A DNA stretch of 64,000 nt from Candidatus Dadabacteria bacterium (GTDB taxonomy: Bacteria > Desulfobacterota_D > UBA1144 > Nemesobacterales > CSP1-2). The position numbers were made by a program, and so were the translations under genes. Numbering within the stretch: the stretch's first letter is position 1; every line of letters starts with the position of its first letter. The notes under the pieces were generated by a model. It was not told where the DNA came from, searched no databases, and saw only the letters and a program-made list of their open reading frames with translations. Positions 15,085 to 59,288 of the stretch are shown piece after piece. The stretch lies in contig CAWDVW010000007.1 of assembly GCA_963805855.1 (NCBI GenBank), forward strand, positions 384,001 through 448,000. Reading direction: 5' to 3'.

Positions 15085-15288
15085 TGTAGATGTTAGATAC
15101 TGCGAGGATAGTCCCTTAGGTGCTAAATGGGCCTTCAAAAATGCCGACGAATTCGTAGGGAACGCATCCTTCGACCGAGCTCAGGACAGGTCTGCGTTCC
15201 CTACATTTCGCCTCATATAATTTGTTGGTAACGCTCTGCTAATGTTAAAGGAGGTTGCTTCGACCGACAAAGTCAGTCTCGCAATGAC
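15085..15288 (+). repeat. composite repeat: module D + REP family A (with nested insert) + linker + family B
   Basis: 15085-15141 is homologous to 1281-1320 and to the reverse complement of 37426-37483. 15155-15288 is colinear with 39872-39980. Confidence 0.8.
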
Positions 15289-15482
15289 ATGAGAGACCAC
15301 TTCTACTGGTACCGATCCTTTAAACCTAGCCTGAGACTTATTGATTAAATTAATTCCTTCTTATTGAAATGCCTTCGTCCATTGAGTTAAATATAGCCTA
15401 TTGAAAATTTAAAATAAAAAAGGACCAATTATTGGTTTAGTATTTTTTTAAGTCATATTTATCCACATAGAAATAATTCTCG

Positions 15483-16637
15483 ATGAAAGCGAAACATAAC
15501 GAAAATCGACCCATCGTCGGCATCATAGGCGGAGGGCAGCTCGCCAGGATGACAGCCATTGCCGCATACAGACTCGGTATAGAAATAGCTATTTTGGACC
15601 CCGACATAAAAAGTCCTGCAGGACAAATAGTGCGAAAAATCGTGATTGGATCTATAAATGATATTAGAACGTTGGAAGAGCTATCCAGAATAAGCAGCTT
15701 GATTACACTAGAAAATGAGTTTGTCGATGCACCGTTGCTGGAAAAGATTGAGTCGTCAGGAGCTATTGTCTTTCCTTCGTCGAAGACCTTAGGATTGATA
15801 CAGGACAAACTCACCCAAAAGCAGACTTTGGAGTCAAGTATGATAGGGGTTCCAAAATTCATGGTGGTGTCGGATGAGAATGATATTCTTGAAGGCGGGA
15901 GAAAATATGGATGGCCGGTAATTCTCAAGGTTAGGAGGAACGCGTACGACGGTAGAGGCAATGAATCGATCAACGGTCCGGATGAGATACATTCGGCATG
16001 GAATAACCTTTACGGTGATAAACGTGATTTTATGGTTGAAGAATTTATTAGATTTAAAAAAGAGCTTGCAATTATGGTTGTAAGAAATACAAAGGGTGAG
16101 TCAGCAACATACCCTGTGGTTGAAACCATTCAAAAAGACCACATTTGCCACATAGTGAGGGCTCCCGCAGGTATCGGTGATGATATTAGTACAAACGCGG
16201 CAAATATGGCCAAGAAAGCGATTGAAGCGATTGATGGCATAGGGGTATTCGGAGTTGAAATGTTCCTCCTGGAAGATGATAGGGTACTCATAAATGAAAT
16301 TGCTCCACGACCCCACAATTCAGGGCATTACACAATCGAGGCCTGCGTTACATCACAATATGAAAATCATTTACGTGCCATTCTGGGTTATCCTTTGGGC
16401 TCGACCAGTATGGTGAGTCCCGCAGCCGTGATGGTTAACTTACTCGGCAGCGGCGATGGAGAATCAGTTGTTAAGGGACTTGATGAGGCTTTAAAGGTTA
16501 CAGGCGCTCATATTCATATATACTGTAAGGAGCACACTCGGCCGAATCGTAAGATGGGTCATCTCACAGTACTGGGGCAAAACATTGAAGAATCGTCCGA
16601 CAGGGCACTTAAGGCTGCAGGCATGATATCCTTCTGA
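15483..16637 (+). CDS. purK: N5-carboxyaminoimidazole ribonucleotide synthase
   Basis: IIGGGQLARM, YDGRGN, NEIAPRPHNSGH and RKMGH motifs. Confidence 0.96.
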   Translation: MKAKHNENRPIVGIIGGGQLARMTAIAAYRLGIEIAILDPDIKSPAGQIVRKIVIGSINDIRTLEELSRISSLITLENEFVDAPLLEKIESSGAIVFPSSKTLGLIQDKLTQKQTLESSMIGVPKFMVVSDENDILEGGRKYGWPVILKVRRNAYDGRGNESINGPDEIHSAWNNLYGDKRDFMVEEFIRFKKELAIMVVRNTKGESATYPVVETIQKDHICHIVRAPAGIGDDISTNAANMAKKAIEAIDGIGVFGVEMFLLEDDRVLINEIAPRPHNSGHYTIEACVTSQYENHLRAILGYPLGSTSMVSPAAVMVNLLGSGDGESVVKGLDEALKVTGAHIHIYCKEHTRPNRKMGHLTVLGQNIEESSDRALKAAGMISF

Positions 16638-16664
16638 AAAATTTCCAAGGAGGTGAGGGTACAC

Positions 16665-17159
16665 GTGAATCCGTTAATAGGAATAGTTATGGGAAGTGAT
16701 TCAGATTTGCCGACAATGATAGCCGCATCAAAGGTGTGTGGTGAATTCAATATTCCATACGAAATGAGGATTCTGTCTGCCCACCGCACACCCGTAGATA
16801 TGGCTAAATACGCCCAGGAAGCCCACGTGAGAGGTATTAAGGTGATTATCGCAGGCGCGGGAGGTGCCGCTCATCTTCCGGGAATGATTGCCGCACATTC
16901 ACCTCTTCCTGTAATAGGTGTTCCTATCAGTACCGAAGCCCTAAGTGGCCTCGACTCCCTCTTGTCAATTGTACAGATGCCTAGTGGCGTGCCGGTTGCG
17001 ACAGTCGCAATCGGGGGCGCGAAGAATGCTGCCCTCTTGGCCATCGAAATCCTTGGTACGTCGGATAAAAAGATACTTAAGAAGATGATAGATTATAAGC
17101 AAAATGCGGCGGAAGAATCGAGACAAAAGAATAAACGCATGCCAAAGAGTAAAAAATAA
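16665..17159 (+). CDS. purE: N5-CAIR mutase
   Basis: [24 protein letters not shown] and [11 protein letters not shown] motifs; GTG 16665 follows GGAGGTGA. Confidence 0.97.
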
Positions 17160-17239
17160 TATCCCTGACGTATGATCACGTGCGGGTCTGATTACAAAAT
17201 CGTACCAGACTGATAATTCAGAACTTATAAGGAACTGCT

Positions 17240-20200
17240 ATGCATTCAAAGCCTAAGTTTAGAAAGAAGGTAAAACATTTTCAAAGAGTCCTGGTGGCAA
17301 ATCGAGGAGAGATTGCAATTCGAGTATTTCGCGCGTGCACCGAGCTCGGCATAAATACAGTTGCAATCTATTCTGAAGAGGATTCTTTTTCTCTGCACAG
17401 AAGCAAGGCCGACGAAGCCTACTTAATCGGGAAAGACAAGGGTCCGGTCGAGGCGTATTTGGATATAGATGGGATTATAAGTCTGGCGATTGAAAAGAAT
17501 GTTGACGCCATTCATCCCGGATACGGATTCTTATCTGAAAATCCAGATCTCGCTAGGGCATGTATTGATGCGGGGATATCCTTCATTGGTCCCCCTCCAG
17601 AGGTGACTGAGCTGATGGGCGATAAGGCGGCAGCGAGGAGATTGGCCACCAGGTCGGGGGTACCTATCGTTCCCGGAACAGAGGGATTTGTGGAAAATGA
17701 TGAACAAGCTATCAAGTTTTCAAGAGGCGCCGGGTTCCCGGTGATTATAAAGGCTGCCCACGGCGGGGGAGGCAGGGGAATTAGAATCAACTATGATCAA
17801 AAGTCTCTGATAGAGAACCTTCCACAGGCTAGGTCAGAGGCGAAGGCGGCATTCGGAAGTGATGCCGTACTACTAGAAAAATACATTGAAAATCCAAAAC
17901 ATGTAGAAGTGCAGGTCCTGGGTGATCAATACGGTAACGTGATTCATTTATTTGAACGCGACTGTTCCGTTCAAAGAAGACATCAGAAGGTGACGGAACT
18001 GGCGCCCGCATTAACGCTTGACCGTGATTTTAAGGAGAGGATTTATGATGCGGCTCTCCGATTATCTAATGCCGCGAATTATACAAGTGCGGGCACGGTT
18101 GAATTTTTAGTCGACCTAAAGGGAAATTTCTATTTTATCGAGATGAACACCCGCATCCAGGTAGAACACACCGTCACAGAACTGATTACCGGTGTGGATC
18201 TTGTCCAAGCCCAGATACGAATTGCAGAAGGTCATAGATTGCACGACCCCCAAACAGGGATTCCCAGGGGTTCCGCGTTAAGATGTAACGGATATGCGCT
18301 ACAGTGCCGCATTACTACAGAAGATCCGACAAATAACTTTACCCCTGATATAGGTCGATTAATTGCGTATCGGTCCCCCGGTGGATTCGGAATAAGGCTT
18401 GATGCCGCCAGTGCCTATGTAGGTGCCGCGATCACGCCGTATTACGATTCCATGCTGGTAAAAGTTACCTCTTGGGGTTTAACATTTGATCAGTGTGTCA
18501 AGAAGATGGATAGGGCGCTGCAAGAGTTTCGCATCCGAGGGGTTAAAACAAATATCCCTTTCCTGATTAAGCTGATCAGGCATCCTGTGTTCAAAAGAGG
18601 GGAATGCACAACGAGTTTTCTCCAGGATCACCCGGAAGTCTTTGACATAAAGGAACCACGGGACAGGGCTACCAGGCTTTTGAACTTTATTGGAGATGTC
18701 ACTATAAACCAATCCCTTAAGAAGCCCAAGACCTGGGAAGAACATCCACCCCTAAGACCGATTTTACCGTCAACAGACCACAACAGGTCAGTGGTTCCTG
18801 AACACAGACAGGTTTTTGACCGGGAGGGTCCGGAGGGATTATCAAAGTGGATTTTGAAACAAAAACGTTTGCTTGTGACAGACACGACATTTCGCGATGC
18901 TCATCAATCTCTGCTCGCGACGCGACTGAGAACCTATGATATGCATAATATCGCAAAGGCAACTGGCCATTTGGGGAGAAATATTTATTCATTCGAGATG
19001 TGGGGTGGGGCGACATTCGACGTATGTCTGAGATTTCTCAAAGAATGCCCCTGGAACCGAGTTTCAAAGCTCCGGGAATCTATGCCTCACGCCATCCTCC
19101 AAATGCTGCTCCGCGGCGCTAATGCTGTCGGATATGCCAACTACCCGGATAATATCGTAAGAGAATTCATAAGAGAGGCAGCAAGGTGTGGGATAGACCT
19201 ATTCAGAATCTTTGATTGCTTCAATTGGATCCCGAATATGAAGGTTTCAATAGAAACGGCCCTTGACACAGGCAAGATAGTTGAAGCAGCAATATGTTAT
19301 TCAGGAGATATTACCGACCCAAAACGGGATAAATACACGCTTAAGTACTACGTAGATCTCGCGAGGGAACTTTCGAAAATGCATGTCCACCTTATCGCGA
19401 TCAAGGATATGGCCGGACTATGTAAACCCTTTGCGGCGGAAAAGCTGGTCCGCGCTATAAAAGAAGAAACGGGGCTCCCCTTGCATTTTCACACACATGC
19501 GACCAGCGGAAACGGGGAGGCAACAGTTCTCAAAGCTGCCGAAGCAGGCGCGGACATTGTTGATTCGGCCATCAGCTCATTATCTGGACTGACCTCTCAG
19601 CCTAGTTTAAATGCGGTTGTCGCTGCCCTGGAAGGAACTGAGCGGGACACGTTGATCGATGTAAAGGACTTAAACAAACTCTCAACATACTGGGAGGCGG
19701 TCAGAGGCTATTATGCGCCATTTGAAGGGGATATGAAATCTTCCAATGCAGATGTGTATCTATACGAAATCCCAGGCGGTCAATACACAAACCTGCGTTC
19801 ACAGGCCCAATTGCTTGGATTAGGAGATAGGTGGGAAGATATAAAACAGATGTACGCCGAGGCAAATAAACTCTTTGGCGATATCATTAAGGTGACTCCA
19901 TCTTCAAAGGCGGTGGGGGACATGGCCCTATTTTTGGTTCAGAACGATCTCAAACCAGATGATGTTATAGAGAAAGCCGACCAATTGACCTTTCCCAAAT
20001 CTGTTATCGATATGATGGAGGGACACCTCGGGCAGACCCTGGGAGGATTTCCTCCTGACATTCAAAAGGCTATTTTAAGAGATAAAACACCGATAAATGT
20101 AAGACCAGGGGAGTTAATCCCACCGGCAGATTTCAATGGCAACAGAAAGAGATTAGAGCTGGAGCTAAATCATCGCATAACAGATCAGGATTTGGTCTCA

Positions 20201-20719
20201 GCCTTTCTTTATCCGGGAGTCTTTGAAGAATTCGATAAGCATAGGACGCTCTACGGAGACATTTCTGTCGTTCCCACATCCGCGTTCTATTATGGGATGG
20301 AGCCAGGAGAAGAGACCACTTTAGAGATTGAGGAAGGCAAAACGATTCTCGTAAAGCTTTTTGCCATTGGGGAAAGCGAGCCTGATGGAAGGGTGCCACT
20401 ACTGTTTGAGGTTAATGGTCAGCCTCGACCGGTGAGGGTGTTGGATAAATCAGCTACAGGCGCATCTATAAAGGCTAGACCAAGAGCAGACATAAAAAAC
20501 CCTCTGGAAGTTGGGGCACCGCTAGGCGGCAAGGTAGTGAATCTGCTTGTTAAAGAGGGGGATAAAATAAGCCACGATCAGCCCTTGTTTACGATAGAAG
20601 CGATGAAGATGAGAACTAATATCAAAGCCATAAATGAGGGCGTTGTTTCGAAGGTTCTAATATCCGAGGGGGACAGTGTTGACGCGGGGGAGCTAGTTCT
20701 ACGGCTGTCTGATGAATGA
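17240..20719 (+). CDS. pyc: pyruvate carboxylase
   Basis: Biotin carboxylase (ANRGEIA, ERDCSVQRRHQK), carboxyltransferase (DTTFRDAHQSLLATR) and biotinyl (EAMKM) domains. Confidence 0.97.
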   Translation: MHSKPKFRKKVKHFQRVLVANRGEIAIRVFRACTELGINTVAIYSEEDSFSLHRSKADEAYLIGKDKGPVEAYLDIDGIISLAIEKNVDAIHPGYGFLSENPDLARACIDAGISFIGPPPEVTELMGDKAAARRLATRSGVPIVPGTEGFVENDEQAIKFSRGAGFPVIIKAAHGGGGRGIRINYDQKSLIENLPQARSEAKAAFGSDAVLLEKYIENPKHVEVQVLGDQYGNVIHLFERDCSVQRRHQKVTELAPALTLDRDFKERIYDAALRLSNAANYTSAGTVEFLVDLKGNFYFIEMNTRIQVEHTVTELITGVDLVQAQIRIAEGHRLHDPQTGIPRGSALRCNGYALQCRITTEDPTNNFTPDIGRLIAYRSPGGFGIRLDAASAYVGAAITPYYDSMLVKVTSWGLTFDQCVKKMDRALQEFRIRGVKTNIPFLIKLIRHPVFKRGECTTSFLQDHPEVFDIKEPRDRATRLLNFIGDVTINQSLKKPKTWEEHPPLRPILPSTDHNRSVVPEHRQVFDREGPEGLSKWILKQKRLLVTDTTFRDAHQSLLATRLRTYDMHNIAKATGHLGRNIYSFEMWGGATFDVCLRFLKECPWNRVSKLRESMPHAILQMLLRGANAVGYANYPDNIVREFIREAARCGIDLFRIFDCFNWIPNMKVSIETALDTGKIVEAAICYSGDITDPKRDKYTLKYYVDLARELSKMHVHLIAIKDMAGLCKPFAAEKLVRAIKEETGLPLHFHTHATSGNGEATVLKAAEAGADIVDSAISSLSGLTSQPSLNAVVAALEGTERDTLIDVKDLNKLSTYWEAVRGYYAPFEGDMKSSNADVYLYEIPGGQYTNLRSQAQLLGLGDRWEDIKQMYAEANKLFGDIIKVTPSSKAVGDMALFLVQNDLKPDDVIEKADQLTFPKSVIDMMEGHLGQTLGGFPPDIQKAILRDKTPINVRPGELIPPADFNGNRKRLELELNHRITDQDLVSAFLYPGVFEEFDKHRTLYGDISVVPTSAFYYGMEPGEETTLEIEEGKTILVKLFAIGESEPDGRVPLLFEVNGQPRPVRVLDKSATGASIKARPRADIKNPLEVGAPLGGKVVNLLVKEGDKISHDQPLFTIEAMKMRTNIKAINEGVVSKVLISEGDSVDAGELVLRLSDE

Positions 20720-20727
20720 AGTGATAC

Positions 20728-20777
20728 GTATGGAACACATATCCTTCGACTACGCTCAGGACAGGTATGCGTTCCCA
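20728..20777. repeat. REP family A copy with a 24-nt insert at its centre
   Basis: GTATGGAACACATA-[TCCTTCGACTACGCTCAGGACAGG]-TATGCGTTCCCA. Confidence 0.85.
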
Positions 20778-20834
20778 GGTTTTGTTTTTCAATAGATCAG
20801 GTTAACCATCGAGTATTTGAATCAGTCTACAAAA

Positions 20835-21125
20835 TTAGCAATTAACTATTTTTCTATAGTATTCCTTACTACTCGTACCGATATTAGTCAGATTTTCTAT
20901 ATCGGCTTCCCATTTTAGTGGATTATATCTGATATATTCCCTGATTTTGTTAAAGCTTCTTTCGGTTCTGATTATATGATCGTAGAATGATTTTTGCCAT
21001 TGAAATTTACTATGTTCGCATGAATACCTGATTTTACGGGTAACAGATGATTTGTATTATTGTACTATAGTCGATAATAGCATCTTTGTCCTGTTGGGTA
21101 GGGAACGCATATATGCGTTCCCTAC
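20835..21125 (-). pseudogene. REP-associated tyrosine transposase (RAYT, Y1/IS200-like) C-terminal remnant
   Basis: Manual translation: [77 protein letters not shown]... Contains WQxSFYDHIIR and YIxxNP motifs, an in-frame TAA at 21059-21057, and no N-terminal HUH half. Confidence 0.88.
21098..21125. repeat. GTAG-type REP, perfect 28-bp palindrome (family A)
   Basis: GTAGGGAACGCATATATGCGTTCCCTAC, identical to 8007-8034. Confidence 0.95.
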
Positions 21126-21131
21126 ATGTAA

Positions 21132-21665
21132 TTATACATCTGTATGTCTGACTTGGTTTCTCCGTATATTGTCAAGAGCATTTTCTTCGATTTTAATTCT
21201 TCTTCGAATCAAAATCAAATTGACGATACTGAATAGTATTGACGTTAAATAACAGGAGAATATCAATGGGATGACCGCTATCTCCAATATGACTGCTATG
21301 TAATTTGGATGTTTAAGGTATTTATAGGGGCCCGTGCTTACGCGCTCGGAGCCTGGAACGACGAGGACCTTGGTATTCCAATACACCCCTAAGCTCGATA
21401 TAGCCCAGTACCTGAGTATCTGGGCAATCAAAAAAATAAGCAGGAATACGAGCCAAAATTTGTTTAACTCCCTTTGAAGCGAAAATTTCTCGAGCACGAG
21501 AGAGATAAGAAAGGCAACGTGCGTGACCACAATGTACTTGTAACCATCTCTGTCGAATTCGAGAGCCCCTTTTGATTTGACTATTTGCTCATTACGCTTT
21601 GCAAGACGTAGCTCTAGAAGGCGCTGTGAAACGAGAAGGGCGAGGAATATCCAAAAAAAGATCAT
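21132..21665 (-). CDS. isoprenylcysteine carboxyl methyltransferase family protein (BpsB/SrsB-like)
   Basis: QRLLEL..AKRNE, LRYWAISSLG.YWNTK, GPYKYLKHPNY and RIKIEE motifs; coupled to the PKS. Confidence 0.88.
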   Translation of the reverse strand: MIFFWIFLALLVSQRLLELRLAKRNEQIVKSKGALEFDRDGYKYIVVTHVAFLISLVLEKFSLQRELNKFWLVFLLIFLIAQILRYWAISSLGVYWNTKVLVVPGSERVSTGPYKYLKHPNYIAVILEIAVIPLIFSCYLTSILFSIVNLILIRRRIKIEENALDNIRRNQVRHTDV

Positions 21666-22747: not shown

Positions 22748-23001
22748 TTGGCCTCAATCTCGAAGGATAATGTTATTGGTCTAAGTTTACAAATAAAAGT
22801 TAGCTGACATATTATACTTATTCAATCAAAGGCTTAGATACGTAATGCATGACTATTGGAATATCATTTCATCCTGCTGAGTCCTGTCGTCGATCTTATC
22901 AATCCTTTTACCATAGAGAATTTAGATCTGATAACTTGGGTAGAGGCTCTTTATGGTAAACTGAACTGTAATTATAATATCTTGAAAGGAGGGAAATCAA
23001 C

Positions 23002-37031: not shown

Positions 37032-37657
37032 GTCATTGCGAGAAACGTTGTGCTTCGAAGCAATATCCTTCGGCATTGGCAGAGCGTTTGATTATCCATT
37101 CCATTATAGGATTAACCTAGCAGATTGCTTCGCCAGCCGTTCGCTGTGCTCCGGCTTAGGCTCGCAATTGTAAATGTTAGATATTTCGTGGACAAAATCC
37201 TAACAAGAATAAATTTCCTGGAAATCTGCTTATCCGTCATCCTCGAATGTTTTAATCGGGGATCCATTGTTTAATCTTTCATTTTCTTTGTCTTGATACA
37301 AAGAAACAAAAATCAAGGGCTTACAAAAAATTAGGAATTATTAAATCAATTCCTCCAGCTAAAAATATTTAATCCAACCACAACCCCAAATCTTTTTTTA
37401 ACGCTGGAGGAATTGATTTTGGCAATTTTTTGAATGCCCGTTTAAGAACTAAGATACTGTCCCCGAATTACGTAACATCTACAGCAATGACAGGAATATG
37501 GCGTGTCATCGGGAAAAGGAAACCACGAAGCAATCTCCTCCACCTCTGGCAGAGCATTGTGTTTTAGTTGCGATTAAGGACTTTTTACTGTCATTGCGAG
37601 AAATCCCGAGCCAGATCGAAGGGCACGAAGCAATCTCCTAAAACATTGGCAGAGCGT
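37032..37657. repeat. mosaic repeat cluster (four family B copies, GTCATCCTCG..GGGATCCA hairpin, long element 37286-37491)
   Basis: Family B copies at 37032, 37122 (inverted), ~37505 and 37590; perfect 17-bp inverted repeat at 37343-37359 / 37403-37419; no credible CDS. Confidence 0.85.
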
Positions 37658-39796: not shown

Positions 39797-40045
39797 GTCC
39801 TCGCGGGCGACTTCGATTAACTCAGTGCAGGCTCGGCGAAGCAATCCATGATCATTTGCGTAAATACAATCGTAGGGAACGCAGATCTGCGTTCCCTACA
39901 TTTTTTTACATATAGTTTATTGGTAACACTCTGCCTAGCGTGGAGTAGATTGCTTCGGAAAAAGCGTTTCTCGCAATGACAGTAAAAAATATTCAATGGT
40001 AGCGGGTGGGCAATGCTCTGCTAATGTTGAAGGAGAATGCTTCAG
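39797..40045. repeat. mosaic repeat cluster (family B with insert, perfect REP A at 39872-39899, two inverted family B copies)
   Basis: GTAGGGAACGCAGATCTGCGTTCCCTAC; AGATTGCTTCGGAAAAAGCGTTTCTCGCAATGAC; GCTCTGCTAATG linkers. Confidence 0.85.
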
Positions 40046-49906: not shown

Positions 49907-50059
49907 AGGGAGTTTTGCCACAAATCTTCAGCGAATTAACACAATTCTGTGAGTGAACCCTTAATTCATGAAATTCTCAATGAATAAATGAAAATCTTAT
50001 TATTAATCCTAATCTCGTGTATGCGAGTGTAACTAAGCCTGGAATGTTGGAATTAGCTT

Positions 50060-51496: not shown

Positions 51497-51542
51497 CAAC
51501 ATGATTCAACTTCGTTACGCTACGCCGTAGACCTCCTTTGAT

Positions 51543-52448: not shown

Positions 52449-52487
52449 ATTCCTGCTTTACCAGGAGCTTAGTTGATGCCTTGATAT

Positions 52488-53402
52488 TTAGAACCTTTCG
52501 CCTAACCATTCAATAATTGCTTGCGCCAGTTCCTCATGCTTTCCGTCAAATGAATGGTTAGCATCGATATTCACATGTGTCACATCTTTATTGCCGCTAC
52601 GCTTCGCTATTTCGCAAAGGTCCTCAGATTCTCGACCCTCGATTATTTCGTCCTTCGACGCATGAATTAAAAGTATAGGTGTATGTTTAACATTTCCAAC
52701 CTGTTTATAAGCCTTAGCGCCTTCAGCCTCCGGGCCGGCAAGAGCCCACCACGTTTTCAACGTGTAAATCTCGGTATGTTCGGGGAGGCTTGTAGGTCCA
52801 TGAGCCTTTTTTACTATTATGGTCTCGTCATGGACGCGCTCTTTTTTGTCATCGGGATAGAAGGTTCTTCGTACCCTTTCATAAACCTCGTCGTAACTTG
52901 GTTGGCTCCCAAAACGTTCCCATCTCCTGCGAGTAGTATCAGGCATTGAAAATGGGGTCGCAATCGCTATTGCCCCGCTTAAATCGGGATATCTTTCGAT
53001 GTCGTTTCTAAGCGCGCAGTATCTCAATGCAATACATCCTCCAAGTCCGTGACCTGCAATGATAATTTTCTTGTAACCAACCTTTCTAAGATATTCGCAG
53101 ACAGCATCAATTTGGGGAATAGCGTCATCGAATATTCCAAAACCAAAAAAAAGTCCTAGATTTGCAAGAAGTGTGTTCATCGTAACAGAGGAGAAATCGT
53201 TATCAGCAAGTCTGCTTGGGAGGTAGTGTTCTGTCTCATCCAGGAGGTTTCCAAGGATCCCGTGAAGACGAACAATCACAGGTTTATGCTCCCGGTGATT
53301 TGAATGAGTATCTATATGGTAATGAACGGCGTCAATCTTATGAGAATTAAATGGTATCGATATAATCGTGCCTGAGTATTCTTCCATGTCGTTAAAATTC
53401 AC
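52488..53402 (-). CDS. alpha/beta hydrolase paralog lacking the nucleophile Ser
   Basis: HGILG, GHGLGG, SKDEII and ANH; shares GIFDD, GSxPxYxExxE and YTxKTWW-like blocks with its neighbour. Confidence 0.78.
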   Translation of the reverse strand: MNFNDMEEYSGTIISIPFNSHKIDAVHYHIDTHSNHREHKPVIVRLHGILGNLLDETEHYLPSRLADNDFSSVTMNTLLANLGLFFGFGIFDDAIPQIDAVCEYLRKVGYKKIIIAGHGLGGCIALRYCALRNDIERYPDLSGAIAIATPFSMPDTTRRRWERFGSQPSYDEVYERVRRTFYPDDKKERVHDETIIVKKAHGPTSLPEHTEIYTLKTWWALAGPEAEGAKAYKQVGNVKHTPILLIHASKDEIIEGRESEDLCEIAKRSGNKDVTHVNIDANHSFDGKHEELAQAIIEWLGERF

Positions 53403-53423
53403 TTACTTTTATCCTCGAAGTGC

Positions 53424-54137
53424 TTATGCTTTTCCATAAACGGGAATACCGGCACCGCTTATAGGCTTTGAATCATCCGAAGAGAGAAAGACTATAACCC
53501 TCGCAATCTCTTCGGGTTTTACCCATTTTGAAAAATCAGCCTCAGGCATATCCCTTCTGTTTGCAGGGGTATCGATGGTGCTTGGAAGCACAGCATTCAC
53601 ATTTATCTCATAATCCTTTGTCTCGTCTGCGATTGTTTCCGTCAGGTTCAAAACCCCGGCCTTTGAAGCGGAGTAGGCACCCACTCCGGCCGAGCCTTTC
53701 AGGGCCGGCCGTGAGGATATATTGATTATTTTCCCATAATTTTGCTCAATCATCCGCGGGAGTACATATTTCGAGCATATAAAAGCAGATTTTAAATTTA
53801 AACTCATCATAAGATCCCAGGTTTTCTCATCCGTGTCCTTTATATAGGAGAAAGCAAAGCCGCCCACAACATTAACAAGGATATCGACCCTTTTAAATTT
53901 CCTAGTAGTATTTGTAATCATGTTGAATACATCCTTCTTCTTTGTAACATCAGCTTTAATAAAAACAATTTTGTCTTTATGCTCACTAGTCAATGAGAGA
54001 CATTCTTTTTTCTCTTTATCAACAATATAAGTACAAACTACCTTCGCACCCTCTTCAAGAAACGCTATGGTGATCGCCTTTCCCAGCGCACCTGTGCCGC
54101 CGGTTACGATTGCTATTTTATTTTTAAGAGTATTCAT
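53424..54137 (-). CDS. short-chain dehydrogenase/reductase
   Basis: TGGTGALG, YSASKAG and LPSTIDTPANR motifs; AAGGAG RBS before ATG 54137. Confidence 0.9.
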   Translation of the reverse strand: MNTLKNKIAIVTGGTGALGKAITIAFLEEGAKVVCTYIVDKEKKECLSLTSEHKDKIVFIKADVTKKKDVFNMITNTTRKFKRVDILVNVVGGFAFSYIKDTDEKTWDLMMSLNLKSAFICSKYVLPRMIEQNYGKIINISSRPALKGSAGVGAYSASKAGVLNLTETIADETKDYEINVNAVLPSTIDTPANRRDMPEADFSKWVKPEEIARVIVFLSSDDSKPISGAGIPVYGKA

Positions 54138-54299
54138 TGGTCTCTCCTTAAGCTGTTCGGGTTTTCCCGGCAAATTCAATGATTTCAAAATTAATTTAAT
54201 TCAAGGGATTTATTTTAATCAAATAATGCGATGTCGCAATGATTCAGATGACCAGGGGGAACACATGAACTATGGTTTAATATAGCTTCAATATTCTGC

Positions 54300-54329
54300 T
54301 TGACATCCCAACTCACATGGTCTTAAAAT
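54300..54329 (+). promoter_or_regulatory. sigma70-like promoter
   Basis: TTGACA-N18-TAAAAT upstream of the 54364 ORF. Confidence 0.5.
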
Positions 54330-54363
54330 AGAAAAGCTGAAAAATTCTATCGGAAGGAATAGG

Positions 54364-54699
54364 ATGGATATTCTCATTTCAATGAAGGCAGAAACGATTC
54401 AGAAAGGACTATATATGAATTGCAACATAATGCAGATGCCAACCGCTCAAGCAAAACCCTACTTTATTATGGAGCTCCGAGAAGATAATGAGGTTAAGCT
54501 TAAACTTATCAAACAATATGCTCAAATTCTTCAAGAAAAATTTGATGAAGATGAGGAGTTTTTGATCGAGCACACAAATATCGGGATCATACTTAAGAAA
54601 AGGGTTGATGAAGGCGTGGAATACATGGAAGCGTGGGATAATTGGGTTCTGTTTTCGAGGAAAGTTTATGAAGAACTGGCGGAAATAGTGGGAGAATAA
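54364..54699 (+). CDS. hypothetical protein (start uncertain; 54364, 54382 or 54415)
   Basis: Acidic ~100 aa ORF with promoter and RBS-like signals; no recognised motif. Confidence 0.55.
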   Translation: MDILISMKAETIQKGLYMNCNIMQMPTAQAKPYFIMELREDNEVKLKLIKQYAQILQEKFDEDEEFLIEHTNIGIILKKRVDEGVEYMEAWDNWVLFSRKVYEELAEIVGE

Positions 54700-54854
54700 T
54701 TAACTAAAGTTATCCATTTTATTTCACAAGTATAACGTATATCTCAACTTGCATTTCCATCTATCTTGGCTAATATTCTTTTCACTTTATAAAGAATCCG
54801 CTAACCAACCATTGATATTTTGGCCAATCAGAAAAGCCGGAGAAAAATCACCAT

Positions 54855-57656
54855 ATGGCTGATGAGAAAACTATAGATTATAAGAGTACACTGAACCTTC
54901 CAAGAACTGATTTTAAGATGAAGGCCAACCTTAATCAGATGGAGCCCGAAATTCTAAAAGCCTGGGACAAGCACGAACTATATAAACAGATCAGACACAC
55001 GTCGAAGGGGAATCCCAGATTTATTCTCCATGACGGACCGCCGTATGCGAACGGACACATACACCTTGGTCACTGTTTGAATAAGATACTAAAGGATATT
55101 ATCGTAAAATCGAAGACAATGAGTGGGATGGATTGTTATTTTGTTCCAGGCTGGGATTGCCACGGTCTTCCGATTGAATATCAAGTCACGAAAGATTTAG
55201 GATCTAAGAAGGAAGCCAAAACGATATATGAGATCAGAAATATGTGCAGGGAATATGCCGATAAATTTGTAAACATTCAGCGTGATGAGTTCAAGCGAAT
55301 AGGGATTTTTGGAGATTGGGAGAATCCCTATCTCACTATGGACTTTGACTACGAGGCCACAATAGCCAGTGAGCTCGGAAACTTTATCAAAGCAGGAAAC
55401 GTGTATCGAGGGAAAAAACCGGTGTACTGGTGTTATCATTGTGAGACAGCACTGGCAGAGGCTGAGGTTGAATATGACGATAAGATGTCCCCGTCCATCT
55501 ATGTTAAATTTCCTTTTGATCCTGAGACATTGATTTCAAGATTTCCTTCCCTCAAAGGTAAGAAGGTTTATGCTTTGATTTGGACAACAACCCCCTGGAC
55601 ACTTCCGGCAAATCTGGCTCTTGCTTTTAATCCCGAGTACACATACGTTGCAGTTGATTATAAAGAAGAAGTCCTGATATTGGCAGAAGCACTTGCCGAA
55701 AAAGTCTTGGGAAATGAGATTCAAATAATCGAGAGGTTTAAGGGAAACGAAATGGAGGGGATAGAGGTCAAGCATCCTTTTTATAACAGAAACTCCATGG
55801 TGACGCTCGGAACCTTTGTCACCCTTGATGCTGGCACCGGAATCGTTCATATCGCCCCGGGACATGGACAGGATGACTATGAAATTGGCATGAAGCACAA
55901 TCTTGAGATTTATGCTCCGGTAGATAAAAAGGGTGTATTTACGAATGAAGTCGAATACTTTGCCGGCATGTTCGTCTATGACGCGAACAAAAGTATTATC
56001 GACAAATTAAGAGAGGTTGGAAATCTTCTCGATGAGGGTCATTTGACTCACTCATATCCCCACTGCTGGAGATGTAAGAACCCGATTATTTTCAGGGCTA
56101 CGCCGCAGTGGTTTATATCGATGGAGGAAAACAGTCTGAGGTCGAAGGCGCTAAGGGAAATTGATAAAGTGAAATGGATTCCCCCGTGGGGTAAGGAAAG
56201 GATATACAACATGGTTCAGAATCGCCCGGATTGGTGTGTCTCGAGGCAGAGGGCCTGGGGTGTGCCGATAGCAATCTTCTATTGTTCAGGATGCGACCAC
56301 GCATTACTGGATCCGGAAATTGTTTATCATGTCTCCGAAATTTTTAAAGAGCATGGTTCGGATGTGTGGTTTAAATTAGATGTGAATGAACTTATTCCTG
56401 CCGGAACCAAATGCCCCGAATGCGGCAGTGACAATTTTGTAAAGGAAACCGATATCCTGGATGTCTGGTTTGATTCAGGCGTTAGCTTTTCGTCTGTGCT
56501 TGAAAGAAACCCGGAGCTATATATGCCGGCCGATATGTACCTCGAGGGAAGCGATCAACACCGAGGATGGTTTCACTCAAGTCTGCTTGTGTCGGTGGGA
56601 ACCAGGGATAAGGCACCTTATAAATCAGTCCTCACGCACGGCTTCGTCGTAGACAAGGAAGGCGAAAAGATGTCAAAGTCAAAGGGCAATGTGATTTCTC
56701 CCTCTGACATTCTCGGTAAGTACGGAGCCGAAATACTGAGGTTATGGGTAGCAGCGGAGGATTACAGGGGAGATATTAGAATCTCTACTGAGATACTAGA
56801 TAGACTTATTGAATCGTACAGAAAGATAAGAAATACCTTCCGATACCTCCTCGGAAATCTATTTGATTTTGATCCTTCGAAAGAGCTAGTGGAATATGAC
56901 AACCTTTATGAAATTGACAAATGGATACTCCATAAGCTGGGAACATCAAGCGATACGATTTTGACAGCGTTTGATCGCTATGAATTCCATGTCGTATACC
57001 ATGAGTTGCAAAGGTTTTGCATTGTTGATTTGAGTTCTGTATACATGGATGTTCAAAAGGATCTTCTATACACTTATCATGCAAATTCGCGAAGGAGAAA
57101 ATCTTCTCAAACCGCAATGTATATAATCTTGAGCTGGCTCACAAAACTTTCTGCTCCCATCCTCACATTTACGGCGGATGAGGTTTGGAGATTTATTCCC
57201 GGGATCTTCGAGGAAAGTGTCCATCTCACAACATTCCCGGAAGTTGACTTTATTAATAATGACCTTGAAGAAAAGTGGAATAAGTTGATAGCCTTCAGAG
57301 ACGAGATCTTAAAAGCGCTGGAGATGGCAAGAGGCGATAAACTCATAAGGAGCTCCCTTGAAGCCGGCATTGAGATATACGGCGATCCCGACACTGTCTC
57401 GTTTATATCCGAAAACCTTGAACTAATAAGGGTACTTTCAATTGTATCGCATATAGAAATCCTAGATGAGCCGCCTCAAGGGGTTAATTTCATACATAAA
57501 AGCACTGAATTTGAGAGACTGATCGTAAAGGTCGTGAAAGCACCGGGAGAGAAATGCGAAAGGTGCTGGACCTATAGAATTTCTGTCGGGGACAACCCGG
57601 ATCATCCAACAATTTGTCATGTATGCTTAGATAATCTTGGGGGAAGGGATATTTAA
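54855..57656 (+). CDS. ileS: isoleucyl-tRNA synthetase (type 1)
   Basis: DGPPYANGHIHLGH, GWDCHGLPIE, WTTTPWTLP, KMSKS and a C-terminal CERCW..CHVC zinc finger. Confidence 0.98.
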   Translation: MADEKTIDYKSTLNLPRTDFKMKANLNQMEPEILKAWDKHELYKQIRHTSKGNPRFILHDGPPYANGHIHLGHCLNKILKDIIVKSKTMSGMDCYFVPGWDCHGLPIEYQVTKDLGSKKEAKTIYEIRNMCREYADKFVNIQRDEFKRIGIFGDWENPYLTMDFDYEATIASELGNFIKAGNVYRGKKPVYWCYHCETALAEAEVEYDDKMSPSIYVKFPFDPETLISRFPSLKGKKVYALIWTTTPWTLPANLALAFNPEYTYVAVDYKEEVLILAEALAEKVLGNEIQIIERFKGNEMEGIEVKHPFYNRNSMVTLGTFVTLDAGTGIVHIAPGHGQDDYEIGMKHNLEIYAPVDKKGVFTNEVEYFAGMFVYDANKSIIDKLREVGNLLDEGHLTHSYPHCWRCKNPIIFRATPQWFISMEENSLRSKALREIDKVKWIPPWGKERIYNMVQNRPDWCVSRQRAWGVPIAIFYCSGCDHALLDPEIVYHVSEIFKEHGSDVWFKLDVNELIPAGTKCPECGSDNFVKETDILDVWFDSGVSFSSVLERNPELYMPADMYLEGSDQHRGWFHSSLLVSVGTRDKAPYKSVLTHGFVVDKEGEKMSKSKGNVISPSDILGKYGAEILRLWVAAEDYRGDIRISTEILDRLIESYRKIRNTFRYLLGNLFDFDPSKELVEYDNLYEIDKWILHKLGTSSDTILTAFDRYEFHVVYHELQRFCIVDLSSVYMDVQKDLLYTYHANSRRRKSSQTAMYIILSWLTKLSAPILTFTADEVWRFIPGIFEESVHLTTFPEVDFINNDLEEKWNKLIAFRDEILKALEMARGDKLIRSSLEAGIEIYGDPDTVSFISENLELIRVLSIVSHIEILDEPPQGVNFIHKSTEFERLIVKVVKAPGEKCERCWTYRISVGDNPDHPTICHVCLDNLGGRDI

Positions 57657-57745
57657 TATAACCCAGCATTCTCTGAGTCAATCAATCACACGTGGTTTGG
57701 ATAAAAATAAACAGAATGTCCTGTTAGGCTTGACGTAATAATCAA

Positions 57746-58816
57746 CTATTCCAAACCTGGCCAGCTCATGATAGGGTCAGTCGAGCTCACAACATGCATC
57801 CCGGCGCTCTCAAATCTTTCAAACGCCATATCAGCCTCCTCCGTATAGTCTATAATTCCCGGAATCACAACAGGCGATGTGCAATCTTCCAATAGATAGA
57901 TCTTTTCTACCAGGCTTTTATCGACTTTCATTACTCCATCCAGCAAATCAGATATTGTCCATGCAACACAATGACTCTTTGCCTGACCGGCTATTACAAT
58001 TGCGTCAAAGGCCCTAAATTCGTGAAGTATTTCCTCTGACTGGGTACTTTTCTGAAATAGGGACTGTGTTCTTAATCCAATGGGTTCACCTTCGGGACCT
58101 GATTTCACTTCCGGGGCTAAAACCGAGTAATGCTCAGTAAAAGGATTATCCCCCTTAACATGAATATGAGGCTGGCTGTACCTTGCGACTGTATGGAAAA
58201 AGATTGCCTCCTCAACAGATGAGACTAAGGCGTGACCGATACCGCCCAACATCGCATGATAGGGCCAGACTGTGAGTTCATATTTCCCCGTTTTTTTCAG
58301 TTCCTCAGTGTAATGAAGTAAATGACTATTAACATACTGTGGACTTCGTTTTATGTTATGGCTCAGCAACTCATTGAATCGCCAGCGACCCTCCCTGATA
58401 TCGTCATGTGAGATCAAGGTAAAAGGGGAGGGGTGCTCTCCATTTTCATCTACAAGAAATATGCTATGGAAAATCTGCATTGCCTGGTGTGTGTCCATCG
58501 TCGGCATGATCTGGGTAATTAGATTCAGATTCCGGTATATGAAATCGCATAATTTTTGATTGTCATGTACCGCGCCTTTTCCAGACCTTCCACCAACAAA
58601 AAGCTCAAATTCCGGAATGCAAAAGGTATTCTGAGCGTCGACAATCACGAGGCAAAGCTTGAAGCTGTCATTACTCGAGGGCTCGATATTATGCTTGTTA
58701 GACCAGTCGCTTGCGGCTTTGGCAATTTTTTGATAATCCACCCTCCATACCCTCGATACCATGTCTGGATCGAAATGGGGAGGAAGCGGAAGCTCATTTT
58801 GGTTCGGCTTAACCAT
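57746..58816 (-). CDS. isochorismatase/nicotinamidase-like cysteine hydrolase
   Basis: IVDAQNTFC, TMDTH, WPYH, KG and AGQAKSHCV motifs. Confidence 0.82.
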   Translation of the reverse strand: MVKPNQNELPLPPHFDPDMVSRVWRVDYQKIAKAASDWSNKHNIEPSSNDSFKLCLVIVDAQNTFCIPEFELFVGGRSGKGAVHDNQKLCDFIYRNLNLITQIMPTMDTHQAMQIFHSIFLVDENGEHPSPFTLISHDDIREGRWRFNELLSHNIKRSPQYVNSHLLHYTEELKKTGKYELTVWPYHAMLGGIGHALVSSVEEAIFFHTVARYSQPHIHVKGDNPFTEHYSVLAPEVKSGPEGEPIGLRTQSLFQKSTQSEEILHEFRAFDAIVIAGQAKSHCVAWTISDLLDGVMKVDKSLVEKIYLLEDCTSPVVIPGIIDYTEEADMAFERFESAGMHVVSSTDPIMSWPGLE

Positions 58817-58986
58817 AGAATTGATATTTTACATATCGCCTGTAGAAACGTAAATATCATTTCTCGGTGGCGAGGGAGAATATTAGGTTTAATATGAGTG
58901 GTGATATCACCGTAGACGTTAGATCTTTGGGGGGCTAGAATCTATAGGTATTTATTTCAAATTAACCATAACTTTTACAATATTTA

Positions 58987-59288
58987 CTTTGTCTTGATGC
59001 AAAGTAACAACCCTTCGACTGTGCTCAGGACAAGGGCTAACAAAAAATGCTTGCGTATCGAGCGAATGCGAGATATCAATTGCTAAAATATTTAATTAGT
59101 TCTCTCAGTCACTTTGTTCCTTCGAGAGATGACAGTAATGATCGTCACTTTTTTTAACGCTTCCGGAATTGATTTTGGTAATTTTTTGAATGCCCATTTA
59201 AACCAATTCAATTGGGCGAAGGTTCAGGAAATAGTGCGTTAAAAATTAAGATGTTATCCACAAATAATGTGACATCTCCAGCAATGAC
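58987..59288 (+). repeat. second copy of the long intergenic element (cf. 37286-37491) with nested inserts
   Basis: CTTTGTCTTGATRCAAAG...CAAGGGCT...GGAATTGATTTTGG.AATTTTTTGAATGCCC...ACATCT.CAGCAATGAC, colinear in both copies. Confidence 0.82.

What the first reader, a model, noticed from the sequence alone, without database searches (positions are those of the whole stretch)
15155..59034. A ~22-24 nt element (YCCTTCGACnnnGCTCAGGACARG) nested inside other repeats
Seen: TCCTTCGACCGAGCTCAGGACAGG (15167-15190) and TCCTTCGACTACGCTCAGGACAGG (20742-20765) sit at the centre of two different REP A variants whose empty versions are in the window (39872, 8007). CCCTTCGACTGTGCTCAGGACAAG (59011-59034) replaces ~4 nt of the long element whose empty copy is at 37286. 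Related sequences occupy family B loops: CCCGAGCCAGATCGAAGGG (37605-37623, opposite strand) and CTTCGATTAACTCAGTGCAGG (39811-39831). These filled and empty pairs across three unrelated host repeats imply independent insertions. Inference: an ultra-short non-autonomous mobile unit targets hairpin loops. It is far shorter than a MITE and may be moved by an HUH or GIY-YIG-type enzyme encoded elsewhere.
Basis: partly seen in the sequence, partly recalled or inferred. Interest (0 to 1): 0.72.

Follow-up and report, generated by a model that had tools for sequence, protein, structure and literature searches.

The report
Tiny nested hairpin repeat, GIY-YIG-linked
A 24-letter DNA unit that sits precisely inside other repeats, a ribosomal RNA gene and an enzyme gene is real, occurs in many bacterial phyla, and is the hairpin that flanks genes for a small DNA-cutting enzyme, which gives a lead on how such tiny repeats spread.

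Summary
The core CTTCGAC-N2/3-GCTCAG occurs 58 times in this 3.1-Mb genome, against about 0.06 expected and 0-1 for the reversed pattern.

A discrete 24-nt form (TCCTTCGAC-NNN-GCTCAGGACAGG) sits at the loop centre of three REP-type hairpin families. All three also have many empty copies. It is also an in-frame 8-codon insert in 3 of 6 adenylation domains of one NRPS gene. A 15-nt core replaces the GNRA tetraloop at the tip of 16S rRNA helix 44 in two genera of the family.

One orthologous REP after pyc shows three states in three congeneric genomes:
- empty;
- plus 24 nt (this window);
- plus 715 nt bounded by module halves and carrying a small GIY-YIG gene.

The motif is multi-copy in distant phyla. 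It flanks a UPF0213-like small GIY-YIG gene on both sides in 52 of 80 metagenomic loci.

The closest known system is the Ssn nuclease with its NTS/SRM hairpins (Chenal et al. 2025). However, the published SRM pattern matches 0 of 58 copies here, and this genome lacks the cognate gene. The joining mechanism is unknown.

Verdict: new variant of a known kind. The scan had noted the nested repeat before on this same window.

The parts
15167..15190 (+). 24-nt module (class II: TCCTTCGAC-CGA-GCTCAGGACAGG) at the centre of a REP A palindrome
   Evidence: composite folds at -14.2 kcal/mol as DNA, z -5.0
15155..15204 (.). Host REP A (GTAGGGAACGCA .. TGCGTTCCCTAC), filled copy. It lies in a 201-nt block (15076-15276) that contigs of related strains skip.
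   Evidence: joint 15075>15277 in runs X5 and X13, replacement 14990>15279 in X6
20742..20765 (+). 24-nt module (NNN = TAC) in a degenerate REP A directly after the pyruvate carboxylase stop codon; three-state orthologous site
   Evidence: G001 has GTAGGGAACGCATA|TATGCGTTCC empty; G002 has 715 nt between the same arms. Contigs of X5 and X6 have 24 fewer letters between 20722 and 20766.
59011..59034 (+). Module (CCCTTCGAC-TGT-GCTCAGGACAAG) in the long mosaic element whose left arm starts at 58989
   Evidence: The ortholog in G002 is 94% identical overall but has TCCTTCGAC-CTA-GCTCAGGAC-AGG.
37605..37623 (-). Module-like core (CTTCGATCTGGCTCGG, 2 mismatches) in the loop of a GTCATTGCGAG..CGAAGCAATC hairpin
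39811..39831 (+). Variant core CTTCGAT-TA-ACTCAG with TGCAGG tail inside another repeat
8007..8034 (.). Empty REP A (loop ATATAT)
21098..21125 (.). Empty REP A (loop ATATAT)
39872..39899 (.). Empty REP A (loop AGATCT)
37288..37320 (+). Empty long-element copy: left arm TTGTCTTGATACAAAGAAACAA followed by AAATC-AAGGGCT

Best explanation
The element belongs to a pan-bacterial family of short 'head plus hairpin' DNA repeats. These repeats are the cognate flanking hairpins of a clade of small (about 100 aa) single-domain GIY-YIG nucleases. That clade is UPF0213-like and is a sister of the published Ssn ssDNA nucleases.

Anatomy: stem, then CT-TCGAC-N2/3-GCTC-AG, then complementary stem, then a 3' tail. 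The tail is GA-N-CGG in the gene-flanking form and (A/G)CA(A)GG in the minimal 24-nt form.

Shown:
- The 24-nt form appears as a clean gain at the apex of REP hairpin loops and in-frame in a coding region.
- A 15-nt core replaces a tetraloop in 16S rRNA.
- Modules nest in each other's NNN loop.
- One orthologous REP is empty, holds the 24-mer, or holds a 715-nt cassette with the nuclease gene in three congeners.

Inferred: the nuclease recognises the folded strand on single-stranded DNA and cuts beside it, as shown for SsnA and its NTS. Host repair, template switching or gene conversion between repeat copies then fixes the unit in exposed hairpin loops. GIY-YIG enzymes cut but do not join, so the joining step is unknown.

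This genome has 58 copies but no cognate gene, so its copies are orphans. They were probably seeded when the gene was present, as it still is in a congener.
For: (1) Excess and architecture. There are 58 copies against about 0.06 expected, and the spacer is only 2 or 3 nt. The flanking stem covaries: pair -1/+1 is Watson-Crick in 54/55 with three pair types (shuffled partners 39), pair -2/+2 in 38/55 (CG 17, TA 21; shuffled 25), pair -4/+4 in 25/55 (shuffled 13).

(2) Clean filled/empty series.
- REP A, insertion at GCATA^TATGC: 13 empty, 5 filled.
- GTAGRTCACGAG REP, loop TC^TTG: 9 empty, 11 filled, 2 partial.
- CCCACCAG REP with the same loop: about 15 empty, 3-4 filled, in both orientations.
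- NRPS: 3 of 6 A domains carry CCT TCG ACT TCG CTC AGG ACA GRC = PSTSLRTD/G.
- 16S helix 44: AACC-CTGAGCTTGTCGAAG-GGGAGG in 4 genomes of 2 genera, against AACC-CGCAAG/CGAAAG-GGAGG in 5 genomes of 4 genera.

(3) The three-state orthologous site in G001, G000 and G002. Contigs about 96-97% identical from two runs have 24 fewer letters at that site.

(4) Multi-copy in distant phyla: 137, 119, 26, 13 and 10 exact cores in five genomes, with reversed control 0. The same tails follow the core in 148 copies from 124 loci of many phyla.

(5) Gene link. A Sphingomonas plasmid GIY-YIG gene is flanked by an inverted module pair. The same holds for subfamily-A genes in G002, G004, G006, G007 and G019 and in G031, G032 and G034. 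In the 80 best of 590 metagenomic loci the module (up to 2 mismatches) is on both sides in 52, on one side in 13 and absent in 15. The orientation is -/+ in 41 of the 52. There are 197 hits against 7 for the reversed control.

(6) Precedent. SsnA binds its hairpin on ssDNA and cuts upstream, and the NTS-ssnA-NTS layout resembles an IS (PMC11893778; Results, Discussion and Methods section 17 read). The reverse strand of the module in G035 begins TGTCAT, like the NTS head CGTCAT.
Against: - No cognate subfamily-A gene in this genome. tblastn finds only the 28-35% identical subfamily-B genes, in an assembly 93.8% complete.
- The two richest distant genomes (137 and 119 copies) have only 39-41% identical homologs, and these are not flanked by modules.
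- Within the family, several genomes with a small GIY-YIG gene have no module, although those genes are subfamily B with other hairpins.
- GIY-YIG nucleases have no known strand-joining activity.
- The 24-mer alone is not predicted to fold stably (-0.3 and -0.9 kcal/mol, no better than shuffles).
- In the long element and in 16S the unit replaces 4-5 nt instead of inserting.
- Most copies are not in large host hairpins (5 of 55 beyond the 5% control).
- No strand bias relative to genes (16 against 21) or to GC skew (33 against 22, p 0.18). A strand-specific ssDNA process might have produced one.
- The 24-letter deficit in the contigs is reported as 8-9 scattered small gaps, not one clean gap.
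Confidence: 0.7

Rival explanations
1. The 24-mer is not itself mobile. It is the collapsed remnant (joined ends) of larger GIY-YIG cassettes or mosaic blocks. It spreads only passively, when its host repeats are copied or converted by recombination between repeat copies.
For: In G002 the same REP centre holds 715 nt. This insert begins with TCCTTCGACTAAGC and ends with CTTCGACAGGACAGG, so the 24-mer equals the two ends joined. Whole blocks (201 nt; 338-nt replacement) are the indel units between strains at site 1. The ortholog in G002 differs as a linked block (C/T, TGT/CTA, one-base loss), which looks like conversion. NNN variants form subfamilies linked to the 5' junction base within the long element.
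Against: The same exact 24-nt gain occurs in at least four unrelated hosts, at loop centres and in both orientations, and in-frame in an NRPS. A 15-nt core stands in 16S helix 44 with no trace of a cassette. Independent precise collapses to the same length in all these places are unlikely.
Confidence: 0.15
2. The hairpin is a host-selected functional site kept by selection rather than spread as selfish DNA. It would serve, for example, for nuclease-mediated control of incoming single-stranded DNA, as proposed for NTS/SsnA in Neisseria.
For: The 13 core bases are near-invariant while NNN is free, within and between phyla. Chenal et al. show an effect of NTS on transformation (abstract and Discussion).
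Against: Copies sit inside other selfish repeats, an rRNA helix tip and a protein loop, where such a function is hard to see. This genome keeps 58 copies without the cognate nuclease gene. The distribution among relatives is patchy, 15 of 31 genomes.
Confidence: 0.1
3. It is a loop variant of GTAG-type REPs moved by a REP-associated tyrosine (HUH/Y1) transposase, or a by-product of IS110-family elements that use it as a target.
For: Three of the hosts are GTAG-headed REPs. The genome has 10 Y1_Tnp matches. An IS110-family element (3 copies) sits exactly in the loop of a reverse-oriented module with complementary flanks. IS110 genes are present in 8 of 10 high-copy relatives against 4 of 21 low- or no-copy relatives.
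Against: None of the 10 Y1 genes has a module within 700 nt; they are flanked by other hairpins. Genomes with 137, 13 and 10 copies have no Y1_Tnp match. IS110 genes in the distant carriers are not bounded by module halves, and two carriers have none.
Confidence: 0.05

Closest known systems
NTS / Ssn-related motifs (SRM) with SsnA, the small GIY-YIG ssDNA-specific nucleases (Chenal et al. 2025, Nat Commun 16:2388, PMC11893778; outline, Results sections, Discussion, Methods section 17 and Supplementary Data 5 read)
   Same: Both are 20-50-nt oriented hairpin repeats present in tens to hundreds of copies. Inverted pairs flank a roughly 100-aa single-domain GIY-YIG gene, and both are widespread across phyla. 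A head sequence next to the hairpin gives orientation: TGTCAT in the G035 form against CGTCAT in NTS. This genome also holds about 30 canonical NTS-like copies and three matching small GIY-YIG genes.
   Different: The published SRM search pattern matches 0 of 58 copies, and the motif strings are absent from the 12 of 14 supplementary files that could be searched. The associated protein is only 34% identical to the NTS-flanked type here. It is much closer to the solved UPF0213 proteins 1zg2 and 1ywl (E 2e-15 and 2e-12, against 0.014 for the NTS-flanked type). In the parts read, the paper reports NTS as rarely inside genes. It does not describe nesting in other repeats, rRNA or coding insertions, or a 24-nt minimal unit.
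Small dispersed repeats SDR1-8 of Nostocaceae (Elhai et al. 2008, Genome Res 18:1484; paper not held; known from recall and from citing passages in PMC5861425, PMC4390886, PMC13756078, PMC3116915)
   Same: Both are 21-27-nt repeats regarded as very small mobile elements. They insert precisely into other short sequences (SDR5 inserts within HIP1), and no enzyme is known.
   Different: SDRs are reported only from heterocystous cyanobacteria. This genome is not HIP1-rich (55 GCGATCGC), and the motif is in many phyla.
REP / REPIN with RAYT (Y1 HUH transposase)
   Same: Both have hairpin repeats flanking their own nuclease gene in inverted orientation, solo and doublet copies dispersed in intergenic DNA, and mosaic clusters.
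   Different: The enzyme family differs (GIY-YIG, not HUH). There is no GTAG head. The loop is conserved and the stem is variable and covarying, the opposite of REPs. No Y1 gene is flanked by the module.
REPs inserted in palindromes, and Rickettsia palindromic elements inserted in-frame in genes (as summarised in Di Nocera et al. 2013, PMC3733652; passages read)
   Same: Small palindromic repeats are found nested within other palindromes and in-frame inside functional genes.
   Different: Those elements are GTAG/CGTC REPs or RPEs of other sequence, and longer. The string CTCAG does not occur in that paper's text.
IS110/IS1111-family insertion sequences that target REP hairpins (Tobes and Pareja 2006, PMC1525189; search listing and abstract start only)
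   Same: Here an IS110-family element sits in the loop of the module in all 3 copies.
   Different: That concerns a 1.4-kb IS using the module as its target. It does not explain how the 24-mer itself spreads.

Membership tests
Ssn-related motif (SRM/NTS) repeats | Hairpin-forming oriented repeat of 20-50 nt in many copies | tested here: met
   58 copies; covarying stem; asymmetric 3' tail
Ssn-related motif (SRM/NTS) repeats | Flanks a small single-domain GIY-YIG gene on both sides | tested here: met
   52 of 80 metagenomic loci on both sides, 13 on one side; 5 relatives, 3 distant genomes and 1 plasmid. Not met in this genome itself, which has no cognate gene.
Ssn-related motif (SRM/NTS) repeats | Fits the published degenerate SRM search sequence HGTCWYN(0-2)YYVSBRHN(0-5)WNVSBRGN(0-2)RNCYNB | tested here: not met
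   0 of 58 modules overlapped by any of the 41 regex hits in the genome
Ssn-related motif (SRM/NTS) repeats | Associated nuclease belongs to CDD family cd10448 | not testable with these tools
   No CDD library available. Pfam gives PF01541 only and NCBIfam has no specific model. The nearest solved structures are UPF0213 proteins.
Ssn-related motif (SRM/NTS) repeats | Bound and cut as ssDNA, one strand only, upstream of the hairpin | not testable with these tools
   Needs purified protein and oligonucleotides
SDR elements (Elhai et al. 2008) | 21-27-nt dispersed unit nested precisely in other repeats and conserved genes | tested here: met
   24-nt gains in three REP families, an NRPS and 16S
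SDR elements (Elhai et al. 2008) | Sequence identity to one of SDR1-8; restriction to Nostocaceae | not testable with these tools
   Paper not held. Restriction to Nostocaceae as stated in PMC5861425 does not fit a motif found in many phyla.
REP/RAYT | GTAG (or CGTC) head, conserved stem, copies flanking a Y1 transposase gene | tested here: not met
   No such head; the stem varies while the loop is conserved. 0 of 10 Y1 genes have a module within 700 nt. Carriers without any Y1_Tnp match exist.
MITE | Terminal inverted repeats of an IS, target-site duplication, usually 50-400 nt | tested here: not met
   24 nt. No duplication at GCATA^TATGC or TC^TTG. A possible 2-nt GA repeat appears at the NRPS site only.

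The most novel reading that the evidence does not exclude
A 24-nt 'head plus mini-hairpin' is a complete mobile unit. A UPF0213-type GIY-YIG nuclease, acting on single-stranded DNA, drives its precise placement into exposed hairpin loops (REP loops, the tip of 16S helix 44, its own loop) and occasionally into coding DNA. This would be a nuclease-driven mobility mechanism distinct from HUH, DDE, serine/tyrosine and DEDD transposition. It would operate across bacterial phyla and would explain the long-unexplained 'very small mobile repeats'.
Probability: 0.3. Interest if true: 0.85.

Novelty: new variant of a known kind. Interest (0 to 1): 0.68.

Why it matters
Repeats of 20-30 nt that behave as mobile DNA have had no known enzyme. 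The only described case (cyanobacterial SDRs) is 18 years old and unexplained. The Ssn paper of 2025 links one hairpin class to a small GIY-YIG ssDNA nuclease but leaves repeat spread as a hypothesis.

This case supplies a second, sequence-distinct hairpin class tied to a sister nuclease clade. It gives exact insertion junctions in several hosts and a natural empty / 24-nt / gene-cassette series at one site. It also shows that the unit can enter an rRNA helix tip and a protein loop without destroying them. That makes the mechanism directly testable with a 100-aa protein and oligonucleotides.

It also has a practical side. These units generate spurious short ORFs, add 8-residue inserts to proteins, and lengthen 16S helix 44.

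Tried and rejected
- Rfam. There are no gathering-level matches in the window. Only generic hairpin or miRNA noise appears on 18 module loci at E up to 5. The rRNA operon region gives only rRNA and tRNA.
- HUH/RAYT partner. Rejected.
- IS110 as the mobiliser. I read the link as target use only.
- Strand bias relative to genes or to replication. None found.
- Thermodynamic stability of the isolated 24-mer. Not supported.
- The idea that most copies sit in big host hairpins. Not supported for the whole set.
- Genome-contig scan. About 1,100 chance hits are expected for 15 fixed bases, so it gives no distribution. It became useful only after the flank test and the per-genome counts.
- Orthologous intergenic comparison at site 1 in G001 and G002. 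The regions are fully remodelled, so there is no filled/empty pair there.
- Taxon of the genome. Not determined. HIP1 is not enriched. An Atlas look-up of IleRS gave only a weak Thermodesulfobacteriota hint.
- Paper searches. No relevant paper was found for peptide strings that such repeats would encode, nor for the DNA strings. These searches cover only the held library.
- Untested ideas. Resemblances to tRNA T and D loops, a hammerhead core and a k-turn were considered from the sequence and dropped because the spacing or pairing does not fit; none was tested with a tool.
- Read laying. Parts of the stretch without cover in X2 and X13 are not interpreted.


Full report
**1. The observation**

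The window alone gives weak statistics: 4 matches at up to 2 mismatches against 0.96 expected, and 3 of 100 shuffles do as well. The whole genome settles it (3.11 Mb in 9 contigs; the window is C7:384001-448000).
- CTTCGA[CT]N3GCTCAG occurs 50 times against 0.057 expected from base composition.
- With the exact core, the spacer is 3 nt in 49 copies, 2 nt in 9 copies, and never 0, 1 or 4-8 nt. The reversed-pattern control gives 0-1.
- Of 87 copies at up to 1 mismatch, 69 are intergenic on a crude ORF map that covers 82% of the genome. Of the 18 'coding' ones, 6 lie in one NRPS gene and most of the others lie in ORFs of 91-126 aa.

**2. Anatomy**

The copies share the layout stem, CT-TCGAC-N2/3-GCTC-AG, complementary stem.
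- The bases next to the core covary. Pair -1/+1 is Watson-Crick in 54 of 55 copies with three pair types (CG 46, AT 7, GC 1; shuffled partners 39). Pair -2/+2 pairs in 38 of 55 (CG 17, TA 21; shuffled 25). Pair -4/+4 pairs in 25 of 55 (shuffled 13).
- The three paralogous copies inside the NRPS were left out of that count.
- Two forms differ in the 3' tail. Class I has a 4-6-bp stem and the tail GA-N-CGG. Class II is a discrete 24-mer, (T/C)CCTTCGAC-NNN-GCTCAGG(A/G)CA(A)GG.
- On the reverse strand the core could form U:A, G.A, A.G and G:C pairs. This is my inference. The nearest-neighbour model does not fold the isolated 24-mer better than shuffles (-0.3 and -0.9 kcal/mol).
- There is no orientation bias relative to neighbouring genes (16 same, 21 opposite) or to GC skew (33 against 22, p 0.18).

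**3. Filled and empty hosts in this genome**

| Host | Empty | Filled | Junction |
|---|---|---|---|
| REP A (GTAGGGAACGC..GCGTTCCCTAC) | 13 loci, 6-nt loop | 3, plus 2 degenerate | best fits a 24-nt gain at the palindrome centre GCATA^TATGC |
| GTAGRTCACGAG..CTCGTGA REP | 9, loop TCTTG | 11, plus 2 with partial inserts | TC + 24 nt + TTG |
| CCCACCAG..CTGGTGGG REP | about 15, same loop | 3-4, in both orientations | same point |
| Long mosaic element (64 left arms) | 45, AAATC | 18 with the module or a derivative; 1 other | 21 nt replace 5 nt |

Modules also nest in the NNN loop of other modules, in either orientation. Examples are C5:311771, C2:453629, C5:284862 and C7:77800.

A general test asked whether the flanks of each copy pair better than mismatched flanks. 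Only 5 of 55 copies pass at the 5% level. Loop targeting is therefore a property of the 24-nt class, not of all copies.

**4. Insertions in conserved genes (outside the window)**

- NRPS. The gene at C5:644396-665929 has six adenylation domains. Three read ..GSGD-PSTSLRTD/G-K.L.AY, and three lack exactly those 8 codons. The extra DNA is CCT TCG ACT TCG CTC AGG ACA GRC.
- 16S rRNA. The single 16S gene (C2:193713-195299) carries the reverse-strand core at the tip of helix 44: AACC-CTGAGCTTGTCGAAG-GGGAGG.
- The two congeners and one genome of another genus have the same helix-44 insert. Five genomes of four other genera of the family have AACC-CGCAAG- or -CGAAAG-GGAGG, a GNRA tetraloop.
- In 16S the stem is supplied by the host helix, and 4 nt are replaced by 15 nt.

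**5. Orthologous polymorphism**

Directly after the pyruvate carboxylase stop codon, three congeners differ.
- G001 has an intact empty REP A (GTAGGGAACGCATA|TATGCGTTCC).
- This window has the same arms with TCCTTCGACTACGCTCAGGACAGG between them.
- G002 has 715 nt between them. This insert begins TCCTTCGACTAAGC and ends CTTCGACAGGACAGG. It contains a 100-aa GIY-YIG gene (C92:15009-15224) with its own inverted hairpins.

Contigs from other metagenomic runs, about 96-97% identical over 0.8-4.2 kb, add to this.
- In two runs they have 24 fewer letters between 20722 and 20766, though the deficit is reported as scattered small gaps.
- At site 1 they skip a 201-nt block (15076-15276) that contains the filled REP (two runs), or replace it (one run).

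At site 3 the ortholog in G002 is 94% identical. It keeps the module, but the module differs as a linked block: C/T at the junction, TGT/CTA in the spacer, and a one-base loss.

**6. Distribution**

- Among 31 relatives, 15 carry the exact core, with counts up to 111; the reversed control gives 0-1.
On its own it is near chance expectation.
- However, the 148 copies in those 124 loci carry the same tails as here (ACAGGC or GCAGGC; ATGAC, GTGAC or GCGAACGG). They come from MAGs and isolates labelled as many different phyla. Pair -2/+2 is Watson-Crick in 118 of 148, against 58 for shuffled partners.
- Five such genomes hold 137, 119, 26, 13 and 10 exact cores, with 0 for the reversed control. 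Arrangements include inverted doublets 52 nt apart and tandem arrays of period 24-26.

**7. The enzyme link**

No Y1 (HUH) transposase gene is flanked by the module: 0 of 10 within 700 nt, and they have other REPs. Carriers with 137, 13 and 10 copies have no Y1_Tnp match at all.

A plasmid search with a tandem array hit a Sphingomonas plasmid. There a 107-aa 'GIY-YIG nuclease family protein' is bracketed by a reverse module upstream and a forward module over its stop codon.

In the relatives the small GIY-YIG genes fall into two types.
- Subfamily A (consensus in alignment A2) is bracketed by the module with the CGG tails pointing outward. In G002 the pair is CCGTTCACACTGAGTTCATCGAAGTGTGAA .. 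TTCACACTTCGATGAACTCAGTGTGAACGG.
- Subfamily B is bracketed by other hairpins, including TGTCATTCCCGCGG..CCGCGGGAATCC.

Three distant genomes also have subfamily-A genes flanked by modules. The two richest have only 39-41% identical homologs without modules.

In the 80 best of 590 metagenomic loci encoding subfamily-A relatives:
- the module (up to 2 mismatches) lies within 200 nt on both sides in 52, on one side in 13, and on neither side in 15;
- the nearest pair is -/+ in 41 of the 52;
- there are 197 hits against 7 for the reversed control.

The consensus there is cgtCCTTCGACAaGCTCAGGaCGAACGG (n = 107).

This genome has no subfamily-A gene. Its three small GIY-YIG genes are subfamily B.

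**8. What is known**

Chenal et al. 2025 (PMC11893778; read as listed under Closest known systems) describe Ssn.
- Ssn nucleases are roughly 94-aa single-domain GIY-YIG nucleases (CDD cd10448) that bind hairpin repeats on ssDNA only and cut upstream.
- The repeats are NTS, and more broadly SRM.
- The genes are typically flanked by the repeats like an IS, and the authors raise the hypothesis that the nuclease accounts for repeat expansion.

The architecture here is the same. The reverse strand of the G035 form even starts TGTCAT, like the NTS head. Three things differ.
- The published SRM pattern hits 41 places in this genome, about 30 of them NTS-like, but 0 of the 58 modules.
- The motif strings are absent from the 12 of 14 supplementary files searched.
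- The associated protein is 34% identical to the NTS-flanked type. It is much closer to the solved UPF0213 proteins (E 2e-15 and 2e-12 against 0.014).

I could not test CDD membership. From recall, and from citing passages, the nearest behavioural analogue is the SDR families of Nostocaceae (Elhai et al. 2008). These are reported only from those cyanobacteria and have no known enzyme. That paper is not held, so sequence identity with an SDR cannot be excluded.

Di Nocera et al. 2013 note REPs nested in palindromes and RPEs in-frame in genes, but not this motif. Searches of the held library for the DNA strings, and for peptide strings such repeats would encode, found no relevant paper.

**9. 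Mechanism, with status of each step**

- Shown: a discrete unit; exact junctions; nesting; presence/absence at orthologous sites; the gene-flanking association.
- Known for the sister family: ssDNA hairpin recognition and adjacent cleavage.
- Inferred: the subfamily-A nuclease acts likewise on this hairpin, and single-stranded loop tips (of REPs on the lagging-strand template, or of extruded cruciforms) are where the unit is fixed.
- Unknown: how the ends are joined, since GIY-YIG enzymes only cut. It is also unknown whether new copies come from a free 24-nt intermediate, from template switching, or from collapse of larger cassettes. The G002 state keeps this last rival alive.

The copies in this genome are orphans.

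**10. Verdict**

This is a real feature. It is a new, sequence-distinct variant of the recently described GIY-YIG/hairpin-repeat kind, and it behaves like the 'very small mobile elements' known so far only from cyanobacteria. Earlier notes of this scan had already flagged the nested repeat and the REP on this same window. I used them as leads only.

Noticed in passing
G000:C2:193713-195299 (outside the window; locus L001/L188): The only 16S rRNA gene carries the module core at the tip of helix 44 (CTGAGCTTGTCGAAG in place of a GNRA tetraloop). The gene is 1587 nt against a 1533-position model.
   Followed up: yes
G000:C5:644396-665929 (outside the window): A 7177-aa NRPS has an in-frame 8-codon module insert (PSTSLRTD/G) in 3 of its 6 adenylation domains, in the loop before the K.L.AY strand.
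   Followed up: yes
G000:C2:116090-117154, C7:152382-153446, C7:641140-642204 (outside the window): Three copies of an IS110-family element (354-aa transposase, PF01548 + PF02371) each lie between CTGAG and N-GTCGAAG of a reverse-oriented module whose outer flanks are complementary. The module loop is therefore this IS's target.
   Followed up: partly
G000 16S 5' end (C2, positions 22-36 of the gene) against class I modules such as C5:762240 and C5:161955: The 3' half of class I modules (GCTCAGGGCGAACGG) resembles the 16S 5' region of the same genome (GCTCAGAGCGAACGC): the same 6 + 3 + 5 layout and 13 of 15 bases identical. This may be coincidence and is unexplained.
   Followed up: no
G000 genome-wide, e.g. 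C2:549219, C2:577020; genes at C5:622329-622550, C5:461674-461895, C7:629613-629837: The genome also holds about 30 canonical NTS-like hairpins (TGTCATTCCCGCGGATTGTTAGCGGGAATCC) that fit the published SRM pattern. It also holds three small GIY-YIG genes of the matching type.
   Followed up: partly
window 58900-59330 against L132:2580-3010 (G002): In a 94% identical orthologous mosaic element the module differs as a linked block (junction C/T, spacer TGT/CTA, one base lost). This suggests replacement or conversion of the module rather than point mutation.
   Followed up: partly
window 15076-15276: A 201-nt block of stacked repeats (filled REP A plus a GTTGCTTCG..CTCGCAATGAC hairpin) is cleanly absent from contigs of related strains in two runs and replaced by 338 other letters in a third. 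Contigs in three runs carry the same 52-nt filled REP with different flanks.
   Followed up: partly
G032:C2:11-182 and C9:12-157; L065:151-216; L171/L177 (G035): There are tandem arrays of the unit or of its 3' half: period 26 at contig ends in an Ignavibacteriales MAG, period 24 in an alphaproteobacterial MAG, and repeated CTGCGCTCAGGATGACA.. in G035.
   Followed up: no
window 1332-1359: A further degenerate empty REP A copy (GTAGGGAACTC agatct GCGTTCCGTAT).
   Followed up: no
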